Position numbers and translations under genes: made by a program. From assembly GCA_046726275.1 (NCBI GenBank), contig JBKPAF010000040.1, positions 174-64,173 of the forward strand: a stretch of 64,000 bases of DNA, written 5' to 3'. This document shows, in pieces, positions 4,874 to 33,946 of the stretch (positions are counted from its first letter, which is position 1; each line of letters begins with the position of its first letter). Below the pieces are notes generated by a model, which saw only the letters and a program-made list of their open reading frames with translations, was not told where the DNA came from and did no database searches. This DNA is from Actinomycetota bacterium. Lineage in GTDB: Bacteria > Actinomycetota > UBA4738.

Positions 4874-5473
4874 TCAGAAGGCCCGGCGGCGTTCCCGGAG
4901 GCGGGCGAGGACGTCGAGGATCCGCTGGTTTGGGGGCGTGTCGGCCACGTGCCGGTTCCGGTGAGCCATCCGGATGAGCCCCTCCGTGTCCACCACGAAC
5001 GTCCCCGGCATCTGCATGAACTTGCCCCCCTTCAGGCCGCGCTGGATCGTCTGCCTGTGCAGGTTCGCTCGGAGGAAGGGGAGGGCCGTCCTGGGCCCGA
5101 CCACCTGCGCCGGACGGGCCTTCGAAAGGCCATACGCACGATAGGCCGAGCGGTCGGGGTCCACCAGGCACTCGAAGGGATGGTCCATCCGGCGGGTGAA
5201 GGCGACCGCGTCTGAAGGGGTTCCCTGGCCGATGAGGACGATCCCGGCCCCAGCGTCCTCGAATCGCTCACGGTCCTTCTTCAGCCCCACGACCTGGGAC
5301 TGGCAGAACGGGCACCCGAAATAGCGAAGGAACACGACGACCGCCGGCTCCCGTTGCCAGCAGTCGGACAGCGTGGCCTCCCGGGCAGCCATGTCCAGGA
5401 GCGACACGTCCGGGGCGGGGTCGTCCAGGCCCGGTCCCTTGACACCTGGCCCCCGGATCTCCGGTGCGGTCAA
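4874..5473 (-). CDS. peroxiredoxin-like (AhpC/TSA, redoxin) family protein
   Basis: ORF track. Thioredoxin-fold with FGCPFCQ (CxxC) and an N-terminal APDVSLLD...LSD pattern. Confidence 0.8.
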
Positions 5474-7317
5474 TCGATCTCCATGGGCGCAGGCTCAGGC
5501 TCGGCCACGGCCCGTCGCATGGCGGCCGCGAAGGGGTCCTCCCCGACCCCCACGATCGGCAAACGGAAGGTGAAGGTGGAGCCGACGCCGACCTGCGTCT
5601 CGATCTCTAGCGCGCTCCCGTGCAGCTCGAGGATCTCCCCGGCGAGAGCCAGCCCCAGACCGAGGCCCTTCGTCCGGGCGGTCAGATCCCCCCCACGGAA
5701 GAACCGTTCGCCGAGGTGGAAGACCTCCTCCTCGGGGATCCCCGGCCCGTTGTCCTGGACGGCCACCACCGCGGTGCCGTCATCACTCCGAGCCGAGATC
5801 AGGACGTGCGTCCCCAGGGGAGTGTGCTTGGCCGCGTTCGACAGGAGATTCTCGATCACCCGCTCGATGAGGCCCTGATCCGCCTCGACAAGCAGGAGCT
5901 CCTCGGCTAGCACTTCGAGCGGCCGCTCCTTGAACAGGGGAGCCAGCCGCATCGCCACCTGGGCCACGAGCGCTCCCACGTCCGTCGGCTGCTTGGCCAC
6001 GTTCTGGCCCTCCGCCCCCAGCCGGGCGAAATCCAGGAGGGACGCGATCAGGCCATCGAGCGCCTTGGCGTTCCTGTTCATGGCCTTCAGGAGTTGCAGA
6101 CGCACGGTGTCGTCCAGGTCGGCCCATCGTTGCTCCAGGGTCGTTCCGGACCCCATGATCACGGTCAGGGGGGTGCGGATCTCGTGGGACGCGGTGGCCA
6201 GGAAGTCGTCCTTCAGGCGGTCGAGCTCCTCAAGCCGTTCCACCGTGTGCAGCGTCTCCTCGAACCGCTGGGCGTTCTCCACCGCCAGCCCGACCTGTCC
6301 GGCCAGGAGCTGGAACGCCTCGGCCTCGGCCTCCGGGATGGCCCGGCCGTCGCGCCTCGCTCCCAGCAGGGCTCCGGCGAGCCAGCCGTCCAGCCACACG
6401 GGGCTCGCGATCAGGGCATGGAACCCGGCGTCGAGGAGCGGCTGGGCCACATCCTCTGGGGCGGTGTGCGCCTCGTCGAGGATCACGGCCTCCCCGGTCG
6501 CGCGGACCAGCCCCGGAACGTCCCCGGTCGCAGAGTGCGTGGCCATGACGTAGTCGTCCGGAAGCCCTCGCGGATGCGTGACCACGAACGTCTCGGTCTC
6601 GTGATCGAACATGCAGACGGCGGCCGCGTCGAACCCGAGCCCGATGACGCTGTCGACGAAGCTCGCCATGACGGCGTCCTTGTCGAGCGTCATCTGACGG
6701 GCCGAGGCCGCCACCTCCGAGAGGACCGTCGCCCACCGCTCGGCCCGGTACCGCTCCTGCTGCAACGAGTCGATGTGGCCGAGGAGCTGGGCGGCCAGGA
6801 AGCTGACCAGCAGCGCCACGATCGCGAGGACCCCGCACCGGAAGAAGACCGTCGCCGCGCTGATGTCCCAGCCGGTCAGCAGGAGCACGCCGAGGTAGCA
6901 AGCGAAGGTGAAGAGGAGCAATGCGACCTGGCCGCGGGGCGGATAGGCGGCCCCGAAGAAGACTGTGGTCAGGGCGTAGAGGACGAACATCTCGGACTGG
7001 CCGCCCCCCGTGAACCCCACCGCCACGGTGATCAGCAGGATGTCCAGGACGGACCAGGCGTAGAGGGTCTTGACCCCGAGGTCGGTCGTGAAGAGGCGCT
7101 TCCATGGCAGGAGCAGGACTCCAATGGCGCCCAGGGAGGCCGAGACGATGACGGCGACGTAGGCGACGTCGTGGATCGTGCCGTGGCCGGGGAGGAGCCG
7201 AAACAGGATCAGCAGGAGCAACGCCAAAACGGTCGCCTGCAGACCGGTGCGGACGGCGCCCAGCCGGTAGGAGACCAGTGGCTCCGTGTGCGTGTTCGTG
7301 TCGAGCATGCCCCTCAC
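5470..7317 (-). CDS. sensor histidine kinase (multi-TM N-terminus, GAF, HisKA, HATPase_c), no adjacent response regulator
   Basis: ORF track. H-box FLATASHEIRTPLTVI and G-boxes DNGPGIPEEE / GLGLGLALAGE are present, with a GAF-like middle region ending in ENAQRFEE. An alternative ATG lies at 7308. Confidence 0.85.
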   Translation of the reverse strand: MRGMLDTNTHTEPLVSYRLGAVRTGLQATVLALLLLILFRLLPGHGTIHDVAYVAVIVSASLGAIGVLLLPWKRLFTTDLGVKTLYAWSVLDILLITVAVGFTGGGQSEMFVLYALTTVFFGAAYPPRGQVALLLFTFACYLGVLLLTGWDISAATVFFRCGVLAIVALLVSFLAAQLLGHIDSLQQERYRAERWATVLSEVAASARQMTLDKDAVMASFVDSVIGLGFDAAAVCMFDHETETFVVTHPRGLPDDYVMATHSATGDVPGLVRATGEAVILDEAHTAPEDVAQPLLDAGFHALIASPVWLDGWLAGALLGARRDGRAIPEAEAEAFQLLAGQVGLAVENAQRFEETLHTVERLEELDRLKDDFLATASHEIRTPLTVIMGSGTTLEQRWADLDDTVRLQLLKAMNRNAKALDGLIASLLDFARLGAEGQNVAKQPTDVGALVAQVAMRLAPLFKERPLEVLAEELLLVEADQGLIERVIENLLSNAAKHTPLGTHVLISARSDDGTAVVAVQDNGPGIPEEEVFHLGERFFRGGDLTARTKGLGLGLALAGEILELHGSALEIETQVGVGSTFTFRLPIVGVGEDPFAAAMRRAVAEPEPAPMEID

Positions 7318-7416
7318 ACAATCCTCGGCGTGCGAAACGGACGCTATAGCACCGGGAGGAGCCCGGAAAGCAGAAACCGCCGGAACCCGGAGGCCCCAGC
7401 GGCTTCTGAACTCAAT

Positions 7417-7445
7417 ATTTTAGTCGCGGCCTCGAGTGGAGTCAA
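7417..7445 (-). promoter_or_regulatory. sigma-70-like promoter candidate upstream of the sensor kinase
   Basis: The minus strand reads TTGACT (7445-7440), a 17-nt spacer, then TAAAAT (7422-7417). It sits in a locally AT-richer patch about 100 nt upstream of the kinase start. Confidence 0.4.
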
Positions 7446-7479
7446 GCCTGAACGGGCCGCGGATCGCCGCGAACCGAAT

Positions 7480-7899
7480 TCAGCGGCCTGACTGGTGGCC
7501 GTCGATCAGGCCGTAACGGACCATCTCCACGGCGATGCATCGGTTCTCCACGTAATCCAGGCCGGCGTCCTGGGCGATCCGCCTCGCTTCGTCCGAGGAG
7601 ATGCCGAGTTGGAGCCATACCGCCTTGGCGCCGATGGCCACCGCCTGCCGGACGACCTCAGGCGTCTCAGCCGAGGGGCGGAACACGTTGACCAGATCGA
7701 CGGGCTCCCGGATGTCCTCGAGCCTCCGGTAGACCTTCTCCCCGAGCAGGAGGTCCGCGTAGGGATTGACGGGGATGATCCGGTAACCGGCCATCTGCAT
7801 CTGCATGGGAACGCGCCCCGCTTCCTTGTGGGGATACCTGGAGATGCCAACCACAGCGATCACCTTCGACCGTCGCAGGATCGTCTTCGGGTCAGCCAT
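7480..7899 (-). CDS. CoA-binding protein (YccU-like)
   Basis: ORF 7480..8133 trimmed to ATG 7899. IAVVGISRYPHKEAG...GYRIIPVNP...VDLVNVFRP is a typical CoA_binding_2 domain. Confidence 0.85.
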   Translation of the reverse strand: MADPKTILRRSKVIAVVGISRYPHKEAGRVPMQMQMAGYRIIPVNPYADLLLGEKVYRRLEDIREPVDLVNVFRPSAETPEVVRQAVAIGAKAVWLQLGISSDEARRIAQDAGLDYVENRCIAVEMVRYGLIDGHQSGR

Positions 7900-7955
7900 G
7901 GCGCGCCTCACGCCTCGCACCGTTCTCGATGGAACGATACCCTCCGGCCCTCGGA

Positions 7956-8594
7956 CTAGTTGAGCGAAGGGTCGGGAGGCATGGTCGATAGGAGTGCGAA
8001 CCTGCCTCCCTTCCGAAACAAGACTTCGCTCCACAGCTTCTCCGGTTCGGGAGTGAACACGTCCTCCTCGAGAGCGGGCTCGATGATCCAGGATCCGATC
8101 TCGAGTTCTGCCTCGAGCTGGCCCTCGCCCCACCCCGCGTAGCCGGCGAATACCCGAGCCCGGCGGATGCCGTCCCGCTGCTTCCCGTCCACCTCGCCCA
8201 TCAGGAACCCGATGGAACCGAACACGATCAACCCGGCGAAGTCCGGGTGCTCCACGTCCGCCAGGACGACCGCCGACTCCGGCTGGACCGGACCACCCAC
8301 GAACACCGGGTCGCTGGGATCCACGAGATCAACGAGCACAGGCGCTGCGTCACCGACGGACACGGGGGCGGGTCGGTTGAGCACCACGCCCAGCGCGCCC
8401 TCATCATTGTGCTCACCGACCAGGACGACCGTGCGCCTGAAGTTGGGATCCATCAGGCTCGGGTCGGCGATCAGGAGCTGCCCCCGCAATCGGTCCACGG
8501 TCCCACTTTCCCTAGATCGGCTTCCGATCACGAGGATAGGATTAGCCGACCGGGCCTGCACGGGGAAGTCCGGACGCCCCACCGAAGGAGGCAA
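7956..8594 (-). CDS. YqgE/AlgH family protein (UPF0301)
   Basis: LLIADPSLMDPNFRRTVVLVGEHNDEGALGVVLNRP is the family signature. The true start may be GTG 8498, which is preceded by GGGAAAG. Confidence 0.85.
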   Translation of the reverse strand: MPPSVGRPDFPVQARSANPILVIGSRSRESGTVDRLRGQLLIADPSLMDPNFRRTVVLVGEHNDEGALGVVLNRPAPVSVGDAAPVLVDLVDPSDPVFVGGPVQPESAVVLADVEHPDFAGLIVFGSIGFLMGEVDGKQRDGIRRARVFAGYAGWGEGQLEAELEIGSWIIEPALEEDVFTPEPEKLWSEVLFRKGGRFALLSTMPPDPSLN

Positions 8595-27509: not shown

Positions 27510-27680
27510 CTGGCCAAGCTGATCTACTCGGCGATCACCTCGCTCGACGGCTGTGTCGCGGACCAGGACGGCAACTTCGCCTGGGCTGAGCCGGACGAGG
27601 AGGTGCACACGTTCGTCAACGACCTTCAGCGTCCGGTGGGCACCCTCCTCCTCGGGCGACGCATGCACGAGGTATTGGTT
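27510..27680 (+). pseudogene. 5' fragment of a dihydrofolate-reductase-family (RibD C-terminal domain) gene
   Basis: LAKLIYSAITSLDGCVADQDGNFAWAEPDEEVHTFVNDLQRPVGTLLLGRRMHEVL matches the first ~55 aa of this ~180-aa family. CTG occupies the usual Met position, and the similarity ends at about 27680. Confidence 0.55.
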
Positions 27681-27793: not shown

Positions 27794-29221
27794 ATGCTAT
27801 CGGCGTTCCGGGGAGGAGGAGGGGGTCGCACGCCTGCCATGCCCGACGCTGCGCCCGTCACCCGGGCGGCCATCATCGATCGGAGGAGGGGCACGCCTCG
27901 CGTCGGGGTGGTCCTGGCCGCAGGGCGGTCAGAACGCCTCCGCCGGCACACCGGGGGCCGGTCGAAGCTCCTTCTCCGCCTGGGCGGGCTGCCCCTGATC
28001 GAGCGGGCCATCCGAACCCTCCTGGCAAACGATCTCGAGCGCGTCGTGGTCGTCGTGGGGCACCAGGGGGACGCCGTCGCCGCGGCTGCCCGCCGCGTCG
28101 CTCCCGACCGGGTGCAGATCGTCCGAGCCATCGATTGGGCGAGAGGAAACGGGGCTTCTCTGTCGGCCGCCGAGGGCGTCCTGCGCGGGGAGGATCTGTT
28201 CGTCCTCCTGTGCAGCGATCATGTGTTCGCTCCGGACGCTCTTGACGGGCTCATCCGGGCGGGGGGGCCGGCCGTGCTCGTCGATCCCTCGCCCGAGGCG
28301 GACGCCTGGGGGGAGGGCACCCGGGTCCACGTCGAGGGTCACCGGGCTGTCGCCTTCGGCAAGGACCTGGACGACCCGCCCATCGATTGCGGAGCGTTCC
28401 TTCTCTCCCCCGACATCTTCGCGGCGGGGCGGCGGGGCGCCGCCGACGGCGACCATTCCCTGGCCGGGGCGGTCACGCGCCTGGCCGCCACGGTGCCGGT
28501 CAAGGCCGAGCCGATCCCCGCGGAGAGCTGGTGGCAGGACATCGACACCCCGGAAGACCTTCGCAGGGCCCGGCGCCTGCTTCGGCGGTCCCTGACCAAG
28601 AGCACCGACGGTCCGGTCTCCCGCTACCTGAACCGTCCGATCTCCACTCGCTTGTCCATGGCCCTGGCTCCCCTCCGACCCTCGCCCAATCTCGTGTCGT
28701 GGGTCGCGTTCTTCATCGGGATCGTCGCGGCCAGCCTGCTGGCGGCAGAACGCCCGTTGATCGGGGGACTCCTCGTCCATCTGCACTCGGTGCTCGACGG
28801 CGTCGACGGTGAGTCCGCCAGGCTCCAGATGCGCACGAATCCCCGCGGAGCCAGGCTTGACAACCTGCTCGATCGCATCGTCGATGCCGCGATCGTGGCG
28901 GGACTCGGCTGGTGGGTCGCCTACAACTGGTTCAGCCCTCGGACCATCCTGCTGCTCGCCGCGATCGGGGCGGCGTGGGGGCTCCTCGCGCAGGCAGGAA
29001 AGGAACGCTCAACCGTTCTGGGCCTTCCCGCGTCCACGGAACGCCTCCTCGGCTATCTCCTTGGAGGACGGGATGGGCGGCTGTTCCTGGTCACGGCGTG
29101 GGCCGTGCTCGGCCATCCGATGGTCGCCCTGATGGCGTTCTCGGTGGCGTGGGTGGCCAGCGTGGCGATCCGGGTTCTCCTGGTCAGGCGACTGGCCCTC
29201 GATTCGGCCACCACCGCCTGA
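27794..29221 (+). CDS. bifunctional nucleotidyltransferase / CDP-alcohol phosphatidyltransferase, IPCT/DIPPS-like
   Basis: The N-terminal half has VVLAAGRSERL ... GNGASL ... WQDIDTPEDLRRARRLL. The C-terminal membrane half has DGVDGESAR-x8-G-x3-D-x3-D at 28796-28873. Other possible starts are 27770 (TTG) and 27839 (ATG). Confidence 0.8.
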   Translation: MLSAFRGGGGGRTPAMPDAAPVTRAAIIDRRRGTPRVGVVLAAGRSERLRRHTGGRSKLLLRLGGLPLIERAIRTLLANDLERVVVVVGHQGDAVAAAARRVAPDRVQIVRAIDWARGNGASLSAAEGVLRGEDLFVLLCSDHVFAPDALDGLIRAGGPAVLVDPSPEADAWGEGTRVHVEGHRAVAFGKDLDDPPIDCGAFLLSPDIFAAGRRGAADGDHSLAGAVTRLAATVPVKAEPIPAESWWQDIDTPEDLRRARRLLRRSLTKSTDGPVSRYLNRPISTRLSMALAPLRPSPNLVSWVAFFIGIVAASLLAAERPLIGGLLVHLHSVLDGVDGESARLQMRTNPRGARLDNLLDRIVDAAIVAGLGWWVAYNWFSPRTILLLAAIGAAWGLLAQAGKERSTVLGLPASTERLLGYLLGGRDGRLFLVTAWAVLGHPMVALMAFSVAWVASVAIRVLLVRRLALDSATTA

Positions 29222-29230
29222 GGGCGGCGC

Positions 29231-30346
29231 TCAGGAACGAGCGCCCACGTCGATCATCGGAGACGATTCGTCCGCCGACCCCGGCTCCTTCCTCCACCCC
29301 CGCTTCCGGCGCCATGCGACGTAGGTGAGGGCGCCGATCGGAATCTGGATGTAGTACGTGAGGAAGCGAAACACGAGGACGGCCGCGATCGCCTCGGCCC
29401 GGTCGGCCCCGGCCAGCACCAGCCCGGCCACGTATCCGAGTTCGGCGAGCCCGACGTTGCCCGGGATGATCGGGACCGAGGAGGCGAGCCGCACGAGAGC
29501 GAAGACCGCGAACGCCTGGGCCCAGTTCACCTCCGCGTCGGAGACGCCGATGAAGCGCAGGCTCATCAGCAGCACCACGTAGATCGACAGGTGGCTGACG
29601 ACGGTGGCCAGGGTGAGGAAATGCCACCGGCGACGAAGCAGGCTGATCGTCTGGGCCCGGAACCGCACCGCCTTCGCGCCCCAACCCTCCACCGGAGGCT
29701 TCCTGAATGCCCGTCGAAGGAACGAGACCACCCGTTCGGAGGCGACGCCGAGCTGCTCGGCGAATCGGTCCCGCCAGAGGCTCAGGCCGATCCCGAGCGT
29801 GACCACGACCAGGATGGTCACCCCGATCACCGCCGACGTCACGAGGGCATCGTCGTGGTCGCCGTGGATGGCCAGGATGACCAGGGCGAGCACCGGCAAC
29901 ACCAGCCGAAGCACGTAGTTCCAGAAGCCGGTAACCAGCGCCTGGAGGGCGATGTCCGAGCGGCGGAACCCCCAGGAGCGGAACATGGCGTACGAGACGC
30001 CGACCGCGACGGCGCCCCCGCCCGGAACCGTCATGGCGACGGAAGTGGACGACTGATTGACCACGGCGGCCTTGGCCACTGACAGGCCAGGCATCCCCGC
30101 CATCGTCACCGGCCAGTAAGTCACGATGTTCCAGACAGTGGCCAGGGCGAGGAGTGCGTACTGCGCGGCCGTCATCGACCGGATCGAGGCCCACACCTGG
30201 CCGAGGTCCGCCAACTGGGGAAGCACCAGAAGGAACACCCCCAGTACGACGGCCGCGAACAACAGGATCTGCGCGGCCCGGCCCAAGCGTCTCCTCTCCC
30301 GGCTTCTCGCCGCGGAGGGATCAGCGGGTTCGCCTTCCGGACTCAT
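29231..30346 (-). CDS. UPF0104 / lysylphosphatidylglycerol-synthase-TM-region (flippase-like) membrane protein
   Basis: ORF 29231..30778 trimmed to ATG 30346. It is polytopic, and IIPGNVGLAELGYVAGLVLAG is typical of this family. Confidence 0.8.
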   Translation of the reverse strand: MSPEGEPADPSAARSRERRRLGRAAQILLFAAVVLGVFLLVLPQLADLGQVWASIRSMTAAQYALLALATVWNIVTYWPVTMAGMPGLSVAKAAVVNQSSTSVAMTVPGGGAVAVGVSYAMFRSWGFRRSDIALQALVTGFWNYVLRLVLPVLALVILAIHGDHDDALVTSAVIGVTILVVVTLGIGLSLWRDRFAEQLGVASERVVSFLRRAFRKPPVEGWGAKAVRFRAQTISLLRRRWHFLTLATVVSHLSIYVVLLMSLRFIGVSDAEVNWAQAFAVFALVRLASSVPIIPGNVGLAELGYVAGLVLAGADRAEAIAAVLVFRFLTYYIQIPIGALTYVAWRRKRGWRKEPGSADESSPMIDVGARS

Positions 30347-30439
30347 CCGCGTTCCATCATCGGGCCCCGGAGCATGGTCCAGCAAGAGAGCACCCACCGC
30401 CACGCTCCCGCCGCCGGGGGGGACTACAATCTCGAACAC

Positions 30440-32521
30440 ATGTTCGGCACAACCAGTCGCGGCCTCCCTGCCGCCCTCGCCCAGCCGGCATGGGCCGAGG
30501 GGCTCAATGCCCGACAGCTCGAAGCCGTCACCTCGGACTCGAGGACCACGCTGGTGGTGGCCGGGGCCGGGACGGGCAAAACGCTGACCCTTGCCTGCCG
30601 GGTGGCCCATCTGATCGAACGAGGAGTTCCCCCGGCCCGGCTCCTGCTCCTCACGTTCACCAGGCGGGCGGCTGGCGAGATGCTGGAGCGAGCCCGGCGC
30701 ATGACCGGCGAGGCCTCCACGTCGCAGGTCTGGGGAGGCACGTTCCACGCGATGGCCAACCGTCTCCTCAGGATGCACGGCCGCACGATCGGCGTCCGCG
30801 CCGACTTCACAGTGATGGACCAGGCGGACGCCGCGGACGTGATGAACCTGATCAGGGACGACCTCGGGTTGGCCCGGAGGGAACGGCGATTCCCGCGAAA
30901 GGACACGCTCGCGGCGATCTACTCGAGAACCGTCAACACGGCCGTCCGGCTTGCGGAGGCGATCGACCGCTGGTTTCCCTGGTGCCGGGACGACGTCAAG
31001 GAGATCGGCGCGATCTTCCAGCTGTACGTGGAGCGGAAGCGCCGACAGAACGTGCTCGACTACGACGACCTACTCCTCTTCTGGGCCGCACTGGCTCGTT
31101 CCCAGTCGTCGGGCGGATCCCCACCGCTCTTCGACCACATCCTCGTGGACGAATACCAGGACACCAACGCGATCCAGGCCGAGATCCTCCGCCACATCGC
31201 CCGAGACGTGAGCCTCATGGTCGTCGGAGACGACGCCCAGTCCATCTACTCGTTCCGGGCCGCGACCGTCCGCAACATCCTGCAGTTCGCGCAGGACTTT
31301 CCCGGGGCCAGGGTGGCCAAGCTCGAACAGAACTACCGTTCGACACCGTACATCCTGGCCGTCTCGAACGCGGTCATCGCCCTCTCCCCGGAGCGCCACG
31401 AGAAGACCCTGTGGTCCGAACGCCCCGCGGGGCGACGGCCCGAGCTCGTCACCTGTCTCGACGAGGCCGAGCAAAGCGAGGCGATCTGTCGCCGGGTCCT
31501 CGAATACAGGGAGGCGGGCATCCTCCTCAAGCGGCAGGCCGTCCTGTTCCGCGCGGCGCACCACAGCGACGTGTTGGAGGTCGAGCTGTCCCGCCGAAAC
31601 ATCCCCTTCGTCAAGTACGGGGGCCTGAAGTTCCTGGAGGCCGCCCACGTGAAGGACGTCCTTGCCGTCCTGCGGATCCTCGAGAACCCCTATGACGAGG
31701 TGAGCTGGTTCCGCGTCCTGCAGCTCCTGGACGGAATGGGTCCGTCGTCAGCCCGCAGGTTCATGGAAGACCTGGGCGTCCGGCAGGGAGTTGGTTCCGA
31801 GCCGTCTCCGCTCCGCCGGTTGCTCGATGGGCCTCCGGATGTTTCGCCTCCCGCCGCCCCGGGCGTGAGATCGCTGCGAAGCACCCTGCACGACTGCGTG
31901 GCGTCGGGTGCGGGCGCCGCGGAGGAGATCGAGAGGATCACCCTGTTCCTGGAGCCGGCGCTCGTCAGCCGATACCGCAATCCTCGCGAGCGGATGCGGG
32001 ACCTCGAGCAACTGGCCCTGTTGGCGGGCGAATATCCGAACCGCGCCCGGTTCCTCACCGAGCTCACCCTCGATCCACCCTCCTCGACCAGCGACCTCGC
32101 CGGACCGCCCTTGCTGGACGAGGACTACCTCGTCCTCTCCACGATCCATTCGGCGAAAGGGCTCGAGTGGGAAGTCGTCCATGTCATTCACGCGGCCGAC
32201 GGCATGATCCCTTCCGACATGGCGACCGGGAGCGCAGAGGAGATCGAGGAAGAGCGGCGGCTTCTCTATGTCGCCATGACGCGGGCCAGCGAAGCCCTCC
32301 ACGTGTACTTCCCGCTGCGGTACTACCACCGGCCGCGCGGCCTCGAGGACGGGCACAGCTACGCGCAGCTCACCCGGTTCCTTCCCCGCTCGATCCAGGA
32401 TCTCTTCGGCCGCAGCACCGAACATCGAGCGGCGGACGCGGACGCTGATCCTTCTCCCACCGCGACGATGGGTTCAGTGGCGGCTGTGGACGAGTTCCTC
32501 ACCGCCCTGTGGCGTGACTAG
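30440..32521 (+). CDS. UvrD/Rep/PcrA-type ATP-dependent DNA helicase
   Basis: ATG 30440. Walker A is AGAGTGKTLTL, followed by LLTFTRRAAGEM, VDEYQDTN, YRST, a late TIHSAKGLEW and LLYVAMTRA. Confidence 0.85.
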   Translation: MFGTTSRGLPAALAQPAWAEGLNARQLEAVTSDSRTTLVVAGAGTGKTLTLACRVAHLIERGVPPARLLLLTFTRRAAGEMLERARRMTGEASTSQVWGGTFHAMANRLLRMHGRTIGVRADFTVMDQADAADVMNLIRDDLGLARRERRFPRKDTLAAIYSRTVNTAVRLAEAIDRWFPWCRDDVKEIGAIFQLYVERKRRQNVLDYDDLLLFWAALARSQSSGGSPPLFDHILVDEYQDTNAIQAEILRHIARDVSLMVVGDDAQSIYSFRAATVRNILQFAQDFPGARVAKLEQNYRSTPYILAVSNAVIALSPERHEKTLWSERPAGRRPELVTCLDEAEQSEAICRRVLEYREAGILLKRQAVLFRAAHHSDVLEVELSRRNIPFVKYGGLKFLEAAHVKDVLAVLRILENPYDEVSWFRVLQLLDGMGPSSARRFMEDLGVRQGVGSEPSPLRRLLDGPPDVSPPAAPGVRSLRSTLHDCVASGAGAAEEIERITLFLEPALVSRYRNPRERMRDLEQLALLAGEYPNRARFLTELTLDPPSSTSDLAGPPLLDEDYLVLSTIHSAKGLEWEVVHVIHAADGMIPSDMATGSAEEIEEERRLLYVAMTRASEALHVYFPLRYYHRPRGLEDGHSYAQLTRFLPRSIQDLFGRSTEHRAADADADPSPTATMGSVAAVDEFLTALWRD

Positions 32522-33933
32522 GGGGCAGCTCCTCGATCGAGCTCACGCGCGGCCGATCGGATGATCTCCACGGCCTCCTCGATCCGGTCGCGATGCGTCC
32601 GGTGGGAGAGGATGCACGCCCGGATGACGAACCGGCCCTCGATCAACGTGCTCGAGAGGAACACCCGCTTCGACTCGTTGATCCGTTCCAGGAGCGCGCG
32701 GTTGAACTCGTCTGCGTCACCGGTCGCAGGGCGATAGCGGAAGGCCACGACGGACAGGTCGGGTTCCCACGGCAGCTCGAATCCGGGCGAGTCCGCCAAC
32801 GCTTGGTAGAGGTGCTGCGTGAGGTCGAGCTTCTCGTTCAGCGCCGACCGGAACGCGCCGACGCCGTGCAGCATGAGCGGAAGCCATACCCGGAGGCCTC
32901 GGAAATCGCGGGAGAGCTCGGGAGAGTAGTCGGCGAAGTTGGGGATCTCTTCCTCGGGGGCCAGGTCCTGAAGGTAATCGGCCCCGACCTGGTGGGCGTC
33001 GCGTAGTCGTTTGCCCTCCCGGACGAGGAGGCTCCCCGTGCCATACGGAAGGAACATGCCCTTGTGCGGATCCAGGGTGATGGAGTCGGCCTCCGCGATG
33101 CCGTCGAAGAGGCGACGTCCCCGATCCGTGAGCTGGAAGAAGCCGCCGTATGCCCCATCGACGTGCAGCCACAGATCCTCTTCCCTGGCCACCCGGGCGA
33201 TCTCCGCGATGGGGTCGACCCTTCCAGTGTTGGTCGTCCCCGCGCTGGCGACGACGCAGAACGGCCGCAGCCCCCGGTCCCGGTCATCGCGGACCATCGC
33301 CTCCAGCCGATCGACGTCCATGGCCAGATCGGAGGTCGTGGGAACGATCCGGACGGCCGCGTGCGGAAACCCCGCGAGGATCGTTGCCTTCGCGACCGAG
33401 GCGTGCGCCTGGTCGGTGACGTATAGCGTTCCCCGGGCCGGGTCCTCGCCGAGATGGACGTGACGCCCGGTCACCACGGCCGAGAAGTTGGCCATCGATC
33501 CGCCCGACGTGAGGATCCCCCGGGCCTCGTCCGGGTAGTCGAACAGATCGCACAGCCACCGGATCACGTCCTGCTCCATCTGGACGAATCGGGGAGCGGC
33601 GTGCCACACGCCGACGTACCGGTTCACCCCGCACGCGAGGAAGTCCGCCAGAGCCGCCGCGAAGAGTCCACCGCCCGGGATGTAGGCGAGATATCCGGGT
33701 CCGGCGGTGTTGAATCCCTTGCGAGCTCCCGCTTCGACCGCTTCGAGGAGCGACGGGAACGGGTGGCCGTCATCCGACGGGACCTCGCGAGTCCCGTCCA
33801 GTTCGCGGAGATCGAGGTCCGAGGCCGGAGCAGCCGGAAGCGCTTCAATGAATCCGCCAAGGAACATGAGGGCGGCCTCGCCCATGGCCCGCATCTCTTC
33901 GAGGGAAGGCTCCAAGGGATAGCGCTCGTCCAT
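32518..33933 (-). CDS. pyridoxal-dependent (group II) amino-acid decarboxylase
   Basis: ATG 33933. The PLP-lysine motif is ITLDPHKGMFLPYG. Its stop overlaps the helicase stop in a shared CTAG (32518-32521). Confidence 0.85.
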   Translation of the reverse strand: MDERYPLEPSLEEMRAMGEAALMFLGGFIEALPAAPASDLDLRELDGTREVPSDDGHPFPSLLEAVEAGARKGFNTAGPGYLAYIPGGGLFAAALADFLACGVNRYVGVWHAAPRFVQMEQDVIRWLCDLFDYPDEARGILTSGGSMANFSAVVTGRHVHLGEDPARGTLYVTDQAHASVAKATILAGFPHAAVRIVPTTSDLAMDVDRLEAMVRDDRDRGLRPFCVVASAGTTNTGRVDPIAEIARVAREEDLWLHVDGAYGGFFQLTDRGRRLFDGIAEADSITLDPHKGMFLPYGTGSLLVREGKRLRDAHQVGADYLQDLAPEEEIPNFADYSPELSRDFRGLRVWLPLMLHGVGAFRSALNEKLDLTQHLYQALADSPGFELPWEPDLSVVAFRYRPATGDADEFNRALLERINESKRVFLSSTLIEGRFVIRACILSHRTHRDRIEEAVEIIRSAARELDRGAAP

Positions 33934-33946
33934 GGCCGACAAGTAT

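What the first reader, a model, noticed from the sequence alone, without database searches (positions are those of the whole stretch)
27794..30346. IPCT/DIPPS-like bifunctional enzyme (di-myo-inositol-phosphate type) convergent with a flippase-like UPF0104 membrane protein
The 27794-29221 product fuses a sugar/inositol-phosphate nucleotidyltransferase domain to a CDP-alcohol phosphatidyltransferase membrane domain. The first domain shows VVLAAGRSERL, GNGASL and WQDIDTPEDLRRARRLL. The second carries a perfect extended motif D-x2-D-G-x2-A-R-x8-G-x3-D-x3-D (DGVDGESARLQMRTNPRGARLDNLLDRIVD, nt 28796-28873). The linker DGPVSRYLNRPISTRLS mirrors the architecture of the archaeal/thermophile bifunctional CTP:inositol-1-phosphate cytidylyltransferase / DIPP synthase, which makes the thermoprotective solute di-myo-inositol phosphate. 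Finding it here suggests either DIP-type compatible solute synthesis, which would imply a thermophilic or stress-adapted host, or an undescribed polar head-group pathway. The gene sits beside a truncated gene and ends 10 nt from a convergent LPG-synthase-TM/flippase-like protein, which could work with it.
Basis: partly seen in the sequence, partly recalled or inferred. Interest (0 to 1): 0.6.

Follow-up and report, generated by a model that had tools for sequence, protein, structure and literature searches.

The report
Soil actinobacterial IPCT/DIPPS-type inositol-phosphate synthase
This gene really encodes a complete two-domain enzyme of the family that makes the stress-protective solute di-myo-inositol phosphate, but it belongs to a divergent, untested branch common in uncultured soil actinobacteria, so it does not show a heat-loving host, and its link to the neighbouring flippase-like gene looks like inherited gene order.

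Summary
Window 27794-29221 (+) encodes a 475-aa fusion of a cytidylyltransferase domain and a 6-TM CDP-alcohol phosphotransferase domain. It aligns end to end with A. fulgidus IPCT/DIPPS (4MND: HMMER E 3e-47, Foldseek E 9e-23). The D-x2-DG-x2-AR-x8-G-x3-D-x3-D signature is intact at nt 28796-28873. It also has the RxxR plus TM6-Arg pair that binds the phosphate of inositol phosphate in PIP synthases.

The gene belongs to a well-supported clade ("A"). This clade is present in 66 of 151 genomes of its own order, mostly soil MAGs, and is 32-40% identical to the Rubrobacter enzymes. In Rubrobacter and marine-type relatives the gene sits beside inositol-phosphate synthase (MIPS). In clade A it stands alone. 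MIPS is present elsewhere in nearly every genome of the order, so its presence is uninformative.

The convergent LPG_synthase_TM gene (29231-30346) is adjacent only in one subclade, which also shares the UvrD and MFS neighbours. Across the order the two families do not co-occur (Fisher p = 0.51).

Most likely function: CTP + inositol-1-P gives CDP-inositol, then DIPP, then DIP. A CDP-inositol-dependent lipid head-group route remains possible.

Side finding: the closest relatives carry tandem duplicates with reciprocal domain inactivation.

The parts
27794..29221 (+). IPCT/DIPPS-type bifunctional gene (P0001, 475 aa). The ORF opens at TTG 27770. An alternative start is ATG 27839 (M16).
   Evidence: full-length homology to 4MND (E 3.4e-47; Foldseek E 9e-23, TMt 0.73). 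AF2 model pLDDT 84.7, pTM 0.81.
27899..28591 (+). Cytidylyltransferase (IPCT-like) domain, residues ~36-266. Motifs: LAAGRSERL, K58, GNG118-120, DH142-143, EGT174-176, D198xG200, WWQDIDTPED.
   Evidence: 2xme E 1.4e-20; 4jd0 T. maritima IPCT E 2.9e-12. (2xme TMt 0.86, 4jd0 TMt 0.84). (residues conserved across clades A and B).
28601..28675 (+). Linker and juxtamembrane helix, DGPVSRYLNRPISTRLS, residues ~270-294.
   Evidence: DG..SR..NR..S is conserved in Af DIPPS, AF2299, Rubrobacter and clade A. Helix 274-294 in the model.
28676..29218 (+). Six-TM CDP-alcohol phosphotransferase (DIPPS-like) domain, residues ~295-475. No extra C-terminal TM helices.
   Evidence: helices 298-317, 321-344, 350-379, 382-409, 426-438, 442-474..
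28796..28873 (+). CDP-AP signature D335-x2-D338-G-x2-A342-R343-x8-G352-x3-D356-x3-D360.
29069..29080 (+). RxxR motif (R426-D-G-R429). Together with R460 in TM6 it matches the Arg pair that binds the acceptor phosphate in PIP synthases.
   Evidence: aligned with Af RDER, Rubrobacter RDVR, AF2299 RDFR and the genome's own PIPS-like RLER; absent in the genome's own PgsA and ClsA. PMC4634129.
29226..29245 (.). Perfect 7-bp hairpin (GGCGCTC-AGGAAC-GAGCGCC) spanning the 9-nt gap between the convergent stops. Possible bidirectional terminator.
   Evidence: Read directly from the sequence. The consensus scan did not list it because it has no T-tract.
29231..30346 (-). Convergent LPG_synthase_TM / flippase-like (UPF0104) membrane protein (P0002, 371 aa).
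   Evidence: PF03706, 69.4 bits, profile 3-302 of 302. (TIGR00374 at 40 bits, just under its 43.2 cut-off). No PDB sequence match. A paralogue lies on C63.
27510..27680 (+). Remnant (first ~55 codons) of a RibD_C/DHFR-family gene.
   Evidence: RibD_C positions 2-49 of 197. (CTG at the start position; the sequence diverges after ...RRMHEVL).

Best explanation
P0001 is a catalytically competent, membrane-bound bifunctional enzyme of the IPCT/DIPPS type. The cytoplasmic N-domain condenses CTP with L-myo-inositol-1-phosphate, supplied by the genome's PadR-linked ino1/MIPS gene on another contig, to give CDP-inositol. The fused 6-TM CDP-alcohol phosphotransferase domain then transfers inositol-phosphate onto a second, phosphorylated polyol acceptor. 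This acceptor is most probably another inositol-1-phosphate, giving di-myo-inositol-phosphate-phosphate (DIPP). One of the two IMPase-family phosphatases in the genome would dephosphorylate DIPP to DIP. In this non-thermophilic soil actinobacterial lineage DIP would serve as a general compatible solute against desiccation, osmotic or heat stress.

Shown: the architecture, the fold, the intact catalytic and acceptor-site residues, and the presence of supply genes. Inferred: the identity of both substrates, the phosphatase, and the physiological role. The neighbouring flippase-like gene is most likely unrelated and is kept there by synteny.
For: - End-to-end alignment with Af IPCT/DIPPS 4MND (E 3.4e-47, residues 38-468). 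It is also the top structural match for the AF2 model (E 9e-23), followed by T. maritima and A. fulgidus IPCT and by AF2299.
- The best NCBIfam hit is the IPCT/DIPPS equivalog, over the full length (213.6 bits). The Rubrobacter enzyme reaches only 255 bits against the same 580-bit cut-off. Relatives of that query are named R. xylanophilus, R. taiwanensis and R. calidifluminis. Rubrobacter accumulates DIP (PMC6741124).
- 52 of the 70 positions that are >=90% conserved in the MIPS-linked group (Rubrobacter, small genomes, Af) are identical and conserved in clade A. These include all signature Asp/Gly/Ala/Arg residues.
- The RxxR motif and the TM6 Arg are shared with Af DIPPS, Rubrobacter and the genome's own PIPS-like protein, but not with its PgsA or ClsA. 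These arginines bind the phosphate of inositol phosphate in PIP synthases (PMC4634129).
- There are only six TM helices. Six TMs are typical of CDP-APs with soluble acceptors (PMC4634129).
- The genome has MIPS, two IMPase-family genes, and a separate PIPS-like gene for conventional PI.
- In tandem duplicates of close relatives, one copy keeps only the cytidylyltransferase residues and the other keeps only the CDP-AP residues. Both activities are therefore retained together, as expected for one pathway.
Against: - No biochemical data exist for any clade-A member.
- Clade A is separated from all characterised or MIPS-linked members by a long branch (0.51 + 0.63 substitutions per site). Identity is only 29-40%.
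- Clade A genes are never next to MIPS, against 11 of 11 in the other group. They also lack the DUF4202/HD-like gene seen in some cassettes, which is absent from this genome.
- Some positions conserved in the DIP-type group differ consistently in clade A: G46S, N112A, L264R and Y401A.
- A CDP-AP enzyme that uses CDP-inositol with a lipid acceptor is known. This is the Rhodothermus enzyme of Jorge et al. 2015, cited in PMC9246714 but not readable here. I could not place it in the tree.
- DIP has been reported only from thermophiles and hyperthermophiles, whereas these hosts look mesophilic.
Confidence: 0.55

Rival explanations
1. The enzyme is a CDP-inositol-dependent lipid or envelope head-group synthase. 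The N-domain makes CDP-inositol. The membrane domain transfers inositol-phosphate to a membrane alcohol such as diacylglycerol, an ether glycerol or another lipid. The neighbouring LPG_synthase_TM protein then flips the product to the outer leaflet.
For: - There is a precedent for CDP-inositol as a lipid head-group donor in Rhodothermus, and a predicted NTP-transferase + CDP-AP inositol-lipid cluster in Bacteroides/Prevotella. That cluster often has a 'lysylphosphatidylglycerol synthase'-like gene (BT_1521 homologue) nearby (PMC9246714).
- P0002 homologues lie directly convergent to the gene in at least 16 genomes of two families of the order.
- Clade A has lost the MIPS linkage typical of solute cassettes.
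Against: - Adjacency is limited to one subclade and comes with wider synteny involving UvrD and MFS.
- The genes are convergent, so they are not co-transcribed.
- There is no co-occurrence across the order (p = 0.51).
- The Arg pair for a phosphorylated soluble acceptor is conserved.
- There are no extra TM helices.
- The genome already has a PIPS-like gene for PI.
Confidence: 0.2
2. The enzyme makes a different soluble phosphodiester. The chemistry is the same but one substrate differs. One example is glycero-phospho-inositol (CDP-inositol + glycerol-phosphate, or CDP-glycerol + inositol-1-P). Another is an unknown polyol-phosphate activated by the N-domain.
For: - Clade-specific substitutions occur at positions otherwise conserved in DIP-type enzymes, including the nucleotide loop (AAGxG to AAGxS) and Y401A in the membrane domain.
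- A long branch separates clade A from characterised enzymes.
- AF2299, a structural relative, prefers soluble donors such as CDP-glycerol (PMC4634129).
- The tandem second copy in relatives has an AF2299-like layout: a decayed N-domain with an active CDP-AP domain.
Against: - The best matches for the N-domain in sequence and structure are the two solved inositol-1-phosphate cytidylyltransferases.
- Most pocket-lining conserved positions are retained.
- No positive evidence points to another substrate.
Confidence: 0.2
3. The gene is a non-functional relic at a rearranged locus, lying beside a truncated gene.
For: An upstream RibD_C remnant shows local gene decay.
Against: The ORF is intact. 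All 38 key residues checked are conserved in single-copy relatives at 48-66% identity. The model is confident. GC content is normal.
Confidence: 0.03

Closest known systems
Archaeoglobus fulgidus bifunctional IPCT/DIPPS (PDB 4MND; IPCT domain 2XME/2XMH)
   Same: Same domain order, linker helix, six-TM CDP-AP domain, complete signature motif, RxxR and TM6 Arg. HMMER E 3.4e-47 over residues 38-468 and Foldseek E 9e-23.
   Different: Only about 29-33% identical. Bacterial, high-GC, apparently mesophilic host. Clade-specific changes G46S, N112A and Y401A. Scores 213.6 bits against 637.6 for Af on NF041135.
Rubrobacter IPCT/DIPPS (R. xylanophilus, R. taiwanensis, R. calidifluminis). The genus accumulates DIP.
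   Same: Same phylum and same fused architecture. 37-40% identity. Also below the NCBIfam cut-off (255 bits).
   Different: The Rubrobacter gene is adjacent to MIPS. The window gene is not. The two lie in different, well-separated clades.
AF2299 of A. fulgidus (PDB 4O6M): a CDP-alcohol phosphotransferase with an inactive cytidylyltransferase-like domain
   Same: Same two-domain fold. E 1.7e-17 on the membrane domain. RxxR present.
   Different: The window protein keeps an intact cytidylyltransferase domain. The tandem second copy in relatives (L007, L008, L010) is the one that resembles AF2299.
CDP-inositol-dependent inositol-lipid routes: the Rhodothermus marinus ether-lipid synthase (Jorge et al. 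2015) and the predicted Bacteroides vulgatus/Prevotella cluster (Heaver et al. 2022, PMC9246714)
   Same: An NTP-transferase plus a CDP-AP enzyme, with an LPG-synthase-like gene nearby in some loci.
   Different: In those systems the two enzymes are separate genes clustered with MIPS and a HAD hydrolase. Here there is one fused gene, no HAD, and no MIPS nearby.
MprF flippase domain / UPF0104 (YbhN) family, PF03706
   Same: P0002 matches the full profile.
   Different: It has no synthase domain and falls below every NCBIfam equivalog cut-off. Its substrate is unknown.

Membership tests
Bifunctional IPCT/DIPPS (EC 2.7.7.74 / 2.7.8.34) | N-terminal inositol-1-phosphate cytidylyltransferase-type domain | tested here: met
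   NTP_transf_3 E 3e-18; 2xme E 1.4e-20 (TMt 0.86); 4jd0 E 2.9e-12 (TMt 0.84). Key residues conserved.
Bifunctional IPCT/DIPPS (EC 2.7.7.74 / 2.7.8.34) | C-terminal six-TM CDP-alcohol phosphotransferase domain with the full D1xxD2GxxAR...GxxxD3xxxD4 signature | tested here: met
   D335, D338, G339, A342, R343, G352, D356, D360; six TM helices.
Bifunctional IPCT/DIPPS (EC 2.7.7.74 / 2.7.8.34) | Fusion in this order through the conserved DG..SR..NR..S juxtamembrane helix, alignable end to end with a characterised member | tested here: met
   (4MND residues 43-453 against query 38-468). (NF041135 profile 3-418 of 419).
Bifunctional IPCT/DIPPS (EC 2.7.7.74 / 2.7.8.34) | Residues expected to bind a phosphorylated inositol acceptor (RxxR plus TM6 Arg) | tested here: met
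   The assignment rests on analogy with PIP synthase R153/R191 (PMC4634129), not on a DIPPS-substrate complex.
Bifunctional IPCT/DIPPS (EC 2.7.7.74 / 2.7.8.34) | Score above the NCBIfam equivalog cut-off (NF041135, 580 bits) | tested here: not met
   213.6 bits. The model is Thermococcales-centred. Rubrobacter scores 255 bits and a MIPS-linked small-genome member 304 bits, so both also fail, while Af scores 637.6. This criterion therefore discriminates poorly.
Bifunctional IPCT/DIPPS (EC 2.7.7.74 / 2.7.8.34) | Genomic linkage to inositol-1-phosphate synthase, as in Rubrobacter and other bacterial cassettes | tested here: not met
   No MIPS within +/-6 kb in any of 22 clade-A loci, against 11 of 11 in the other group. 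MIPS is on contig C78 with a PadR gene.
Bifunctional IPCT/DIPPS (EC 2.7.7.74 / 2.7.8.34) | Inositol-1-phosphate supply and a candidate DIPP phosphatase in the genome | tested here: inconclusive
   MIPS is present, but it is present in 143 of 151 genomes of the order regardless of this gene. Two IMPase-family genes are present, but that family rings in all 14 control genomes.
Bifunctional IPCT/DIPPS (EC 2.7.7.74 / 2.7.8.34) | Formation of CDP-inositol and DIPP; DIP accumulation | not testable with these tools
   Needs enzyme assay and NMR or LC-MS.
Phosphatidylinositol-phosphate synthase (PIPS; NF045883) | Score above the equivalog cut-off; stand-alone ~200-aa CDP-AP using CDP-DAG | tested here: not met
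   52.3 bits against a 170 cut-off. The protein is fused to a cytidylyltransferase. The genome has a separate PIPS-like gene, L004, at 107 bits.
CDP-inositol-dependent inositol-lipid clusters (Rhodothermus / Bacteroides vulgatus type) | Separate NTP-transferase and CDP-AP genes clustered with MIPS and a HAD hydrolase | tested here: not met
   Single fused gene. Neighbours are MFS, a RibD_C remnant, LPG_synthase_TM, UvrD and a PLP decarboxylase.
LPG_synthase_TM / flippase-like (PF03706), for the convergent gene | Full-length match above the Pfam gathering score | tested here: met
   69.4 bits against 33.4; profile 3-302 of 302.
LPG_synthase_TM / flippase-like (PF03706), for the convergent gene | Functional coupling to the IPCT/DIPPS-type gene (conserved linkage and co-occurrence) | tested here: inconclusive
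   Adjacent in at least 16 genomes of families f1 and f4, forming one subclade. That subclade also shows broader synteny. There is no co-occurrence across the order.

The most novel reading that the evidence does not exclude
Clade-A enzymes do not make the solute DIP. Instead they use CDP-inositol to put an inositol-phosphate head group on a membrane lipid or envelope component. This would be a Kennedy-type second route to inositol lipids in Actinomycetota. In the window's subclade the product would be moved across the membrane by the adjacent flippase-like protein. The tandem 'half-dead' duplicates in sister genomes would then be a heterodimeric version of the same machine.
Probability: 0.17. 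Interest if true: 0.6.

Novelty: new member of a known kind. Interest (0 to 1): 0.35.

Why it matters
DIP is regarded as a hallmark solute of life at high temperature. The title of Goncalves et al. [quoted passage not shown] If this intact enzyme branch, carried by almost half of a widespread soil actinobacterial order, really makes DIP, the solute would be a general stress protectant in ordinary soils, for example against drying. Gene-based inference of thermophily from IPCT/DIPPS would then be unsafe. If it makes something else, it marks an undescribed inositol phosphodiester or lipid. Either outcome can be tested with one heterologous expression experiment. Annotation pipelines already label these genes IPCT/DIPPS (JGI names), so the identification itself is not new.

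Tried and rejected
- **ROK kinase neighbour.** A 'conserved ROK-kinase neighbour' suggested by ORF clustering was an artefact of overlapping wrong-frame ORFs in high-GC DNA. A ROK gene follows the gene only in L050.
- **Growth temperature from proteome.** The IVYWREL fraction is 0.406, which predicts about 45 °C. I rejected this as evidence. The ORFs were crude stop-to-stop segments, and high GC inflates Arg, Val, Leu and Glu.
- **MIPS as support.** MIPS is near-universal in the order (143 of 151), so its presence is uninformative.
- **Co-occurrence.** Genome-level co-occurrence of the P0001 and P0002 families gave no association. Paralogy in the PF03706 family limits this test.
- **DUF4202/HD-like phosphatase.** This gene is found next to the gene in L062 and L067-L069. 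It is absent from the genome by tblastn at E <= 0.01.
- **Papers.** Nogly 2014 (4MND structure), Rodrigues 2007 and Brito 2011 are not held, and I did not read Jorge 2015 (known only from its citation in PMC9246714). DIPPS-specific pocket residues and the Rhodothermus lipid synthase could therefore not be compared.
- **Single-protein genome scan.** The single-protein scan of genome contigs found only 4 close loci. Wider sampling came from the genome search instead.
- **Promoter and terminator scan.** It found nothing above chance.
Full report
**1. What is in the sequence**

The window is a 64-kb stretch at about 67% GC. It is contig C40 of a 2.54-Mb, 102-contig, 88%-complete genome. The close relatives that carry a record title are called Actinomycetota or Actinobacteria bacterium MAGs. 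Their isolate and scaffold names suggest soil ('SMAG_...', '..._16_40cm_scaffold'); that habitat reading is my inference.

Pfam finds NTP_transf_3 at residues 38-157 and CDP-OH_P_transf at 298-381. The signature D335-x2-D338-G-x2-A-R-x8-G352-x3-D356-x3-D360 lies at nt 28796-28873, as stated.

The gene stops at 29219-29221. The convergent gene 29231-30346 (-) stops 9 nt away. It encodes a 371-aa full-length LPG_synthase_TM (PF03706) protein, P0002. A perfect 7-bp hairpin (29226-29245) spans the junction.

Upstream, after the stop of an MFS gene, 27510-~27680 encodes only the first ~50 residues of a RibD_C-family protein, with CTG in place of a start codon. Two small corrections apply. The gap is 9 nt, not 10. 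The start is uncertain: residues 1-31 are predicted disordered and homologues align from about residue 30-36, so ATG 27839 is an alternative.

**2. Homology to IPCT/DIPPS**

P0001 aligns end to end with the solved A. fulgidus bifunctional IPCT/DIPPS (query 38-468 against chain 43-453 of 4MND, E 3.4e-47). Its N-domain aligns with the isolated A. fulgidus and T. maritima inositol-1-phosphate cytidylyltransferases. Its membrane domain aligns with AF2299 and with PIP synthases.

An AlphaFold2 model built on 30 homologues has pLDDT 84.7 and pTM 0.81. It shows a Rossmann-like domain, a juxtamembrane helix (274-294), six TM helices and nothing after TM6. Foldseek against the PDB returns 4MND first (E 9e-23, TMt 0.73), then T. 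maritima IPCT 4JD0 (TMt 0.84), AF2299, and A. fulgidus IPCT 2XME (TMt 0.86).

In NCBIfam the best hit, and the only full-length one, is the IPCT/DIPPS equivalog NF041135. It scores 213.6 bits over profile positions 3-418 of 419. Archaetidylinositol-phosphate synthase scores 66.9 and PIP synthase 52.3.

The 580-bit cut-off of NF041135 is not met, but this is not informative. The Rubrobacter enzyme scores 255 bits and a MIPS-linked member from a small actinobacterial genome scores 304, while A. fulgidus scores 637.6. The Rubrobacter query's relatives are named R. xylanophilus, R. taiwanensis and R. calidifluminis. Rubrobacter accumulates DIP (PMC6741124). From memory, Rodrigues et al. 2007 demonstrated the activity of the R. 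xylanophilus enzyme; that paper is not held here.

**3. Not an ordinary phospholipid synthase**

The genome carries three other CDP-alcohol phosphotransferases. They score as PgsA (117 bits, above cut-off), a ClsA-type cardiolipin synthase (146 bits) and a PIPS/AIPS-like enzyme (107 and 114 bits). Conventional phospholipid and PI synthesis are thus accounted for without P0001.

**4. Distribution and phylogeny**

More than 1,200 metagenomic proteins match P0001. Many are already named by JGI as 1L-myo-inositol 1-phosphate cytidylyltransferase / CDP-L-myo-inositol myo-inositolphosphotransferase.

Among species-representative genomes, homologues at E <= 1e-20 occur as follows:

| Sample | Genomes with a homologue |
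|---|---|
| Phylum | 34 of 401 |
| Own order, all genomes | 66 of 151 |
| Own order, high-quality genomes | 43 of 91 |

A maximum-likelihood tree of 35 sequences splits them into two groups separated by branches of 0.51 and 0.63 substitutions per site, each with 100% SH-aLRT support.

- **Clade A** holds the window gene and the members from its own order, plus a few from other families of the phylum. They are 48-66% identical to P0001.
- **Group B** holds A. fulgidus, Rubrobacter and members from 1.3-1.8-Mb actinobacterial genomes. They are 32-40% identical to P0001.

In all 11 actinobacterial group-B loci (Rubrobacter and the small genomes; no genomic context was available for A. fulgidus) an inositol-1-phosphate synthase gene is directly adjacent. 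The Rubrobacter neighbour was confirmed against Pfam PF07994 and PF01658. Four of these loci also have a DUF4202/HD-like gene next in line. None of the 22 clade-A loci has MIPS within 6 kb.

**5. Residue-level comparison**

Of the 70 alignment columns that are >=90% conserved in group B, 52 are identical and equally conserved in clade A. These cover the following features:

- the nucleotide loop, the Lys, GNG, DH, the D.G and W.D.D motifs of the cytidylyltransferase;
- the DG..SR..NR..S linker;
- the whole CDP-AP signature;
- an RD.R motif.

Consistent clade-A differences are G46S (AAGxG becomes AAGxS), N112A, L264R and Y401A.

An alignment of the membrane domains shows that the RxxR motif (R426-D-G-R429) and an Arg in TM6 (R460) are shared with Af DIPPS, Rubrobacter, AF2299 (the RxxR only; the available AF2299 fragment ends before TM6) and the genome's own PIPS-like protein. 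The genome's PgsA and ClsA lack them. In PIP synthases these two arginines coordinate the phosphate of the inositol-phosphate acceptor and are essential. Six-TM CDP-APs are those with soluble acceptors, whereas lipid-acceptor enzymes such as CEPT1 carry extra helices (PMC4634129).

This favours a phosphorylated, soluble acceptor such as inositol-1-phosphate. The argument is by analogy only. I could not read the DIPPS structure paper.

**6. Supply genes**

The genome has one MIPS gene (C78:1932-3062) directly downstream of a PadR-type regulator. It also has two IMPase-family genes. Neither fact is discriminating. MIPS is present in 143 of 151 genomes of the order, whether or not they carry the P0001 homologue. 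IMPase-family proteins are found in all 14 control genomes.

**7. The flippase-like neighbour**

P0002 homologues lie convergent and immediately downstream of the P0001 homologue in L006-L010, L048 and L051. By coordinates, the same holds in at least 16 genomes of families f1 and f4. In the tree these members form one subclade with 99% support, so the arrangement arose once.

The same loci also share the UvrD helicase, and partly the PLP decarboxylase and MFS genes, with the window. The adjacency is therefore embedded in general synteny. In families f2, f3 and f5, and in L013, the P0001 homologue has no such neighbour.

Across the order the two families are independent. The counts are 41 genomes with both, 25 with P0001 only, 48 with P0002 only and 37 with neither (odds ratio 1.26, Fisher p = 0.51). 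Paralogy in PF03706 blurs this test, and the genome itself has a second copy on C63.

The parallel with Bacteroidetes keeps a lipid reading alive. There, an LPG-synthase-like gene often sits near inositol-lipid clusters, including the predicted NTP-transferase + CDP-AP route (PMC9246714). Even so, the evidence here fits inherited gene order better than functional coupling.

**8. An unexpected side finding**

In the closest relatives (L007, L008, L010, L080) the gene is tandemly duplicated between the upstream genes and the flippase-like gene. Reading 20 cytidylyltransferase and 18 CDP-AP key positions (alignments) gives the following picture.

- **Copy 1** (62-66% identical to P0001) keeps every cytidylyltransferase residue. 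It has lost the catalytic D356 and D360 (to G or N, and N) and sometimes D335.
- **Copy 2** (42-44% identical) has a decayed N-domain: GNG, DH and WW.D.D are lost and there is a deletion of about 40 residues. Its CDP-AP signature (D..DG..SR...G...D...D), RxxR and TM6 Arg are intact. This layout resembles AF2299. Copy 2 could be read in L007, L008 and L010 only; in L080 it is cut off by the contig end.
- **Single-copy members**, including the window gene, keep both sets of residues.

This reciprocal subfunctionalisation shows that both activities are under selection and are kept together. That is what one expects if they form one pathway.

**9. Host temperature**

Nothing indicates thermophily. 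The clade is common in MAGs whose record names point to soil. A crude proteome-composition estimate gave about 45 °C, but it is unreliable for high-GC stop-to-stop ORFs. Predicted DIP genes in cold hadal Thaumarchaeota (PMC7265257) already show that the family is not confined to hot habitats.

**10. Verdict**

The gene is a genuine, intact member of the IPCT/DIPPS architecture family, in a divergent and biochemically untested actinobacterial clade.

- **Most likely (0.55):** it makes CDP-inositol and then DIPP, which a phosphatase converts to DIP, used as a general stress solute.
- **Rival (0.2):** a CDP-inositol-dependent lipid or envelope head-group transferase.
- **Rival (0.2):** a synthase for a different phosphodiester solute.
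- **Rival (0.03):** a non-functional relic.

The identification matches what annotation pipelines already assign. Earlier notes of this scan on sister genomes reached the same view; these are not independent evidence. I rate it a new member of a known kind, of modest interest. The testable question is whether DIP is made in ordinary soils. The tandem half-inactivated duplicates are a small bonus.

Noticed in passing
L007:5962-8739, L008:3778-6842, L010:7899-10987, L080:3199-4903: Tandem duplicates of the IPCT/DIPPS-type gene show reciprocal domain inactivation. Copy 1 keeps all cytidylyltransferase residues but has lost CDP-AP catalytic Asp D3 and D4 (and sometimes D1). Copy 2 has a decayed N-domain but an intact CDP-AP signature, an AF2299-like layout. 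Copy 2 is readable in L007, L008 and L010 and is cut off by the contig end in L080. The window genome has only the fully intact single copy.
   Followed up: partly
window 27510-27680: Remnant of a RibD_C/DHFR-family gene. It matches profile positions 2-49 of 197, has CTG where the start codon should be, and sits directly after the MFS stop codon. It marks a deletion or rearrangement just upstream of the gene.
   Followed up: partly
window 29226-29245: Perfect 7-bp GC-rich hairpin (GGCGCTC-AGGAAC-GAGCGCC) across the 9-nt gap between the two convergent stop codons, with no T-tract. Possibly a bidirectional terminator.
   Followed up: no
L062:4827-7891; L067, L068, L069 (about 5420-8420 in each): Actinobacterial genomes of 1.3-1.8 Mb carry a compact three-gene cassette: MIPS, IPCT/DIPPS, and a ~200-aa HD-motif (DUF4202-like) protein. 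The third gene is a candidate for the missing DIPP phosphatase. It has no homologue in the window's genome.
   Followed up: partly
P0178, 770 aa, on a 266-kb JGI contig; P0194-P0217, ~627 aa (one of them named Bathyarchaeia): Longer architectures occur in the same family. One has HAD-hydrolase domains fused to IPCT/DIPPS, a possible three-step single polypeptide. A 627-aa form is abundant in metagenomes.
   Followed up: no
G000:C78:1932-3638 (L072): The genome's only MIPS gene is preceded, on the same strand and abutting it, by a PadR-family regulator. From memory this is the arrangement of mycobacterial Rv0047c-ino1. It is a housekeeping context rather than a solute-cassette context.
   Followed up: no
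window 32518-33942 (-) and 30374-32521 (+): A UvrD-type helicase and a group II PLP-dependent decarboxylase are syntenic with the IPCT/DIPPS-flippase pair in relatives (L010). They are useful as synteny markers, and no functional link is apparent.
   Followed up: partly
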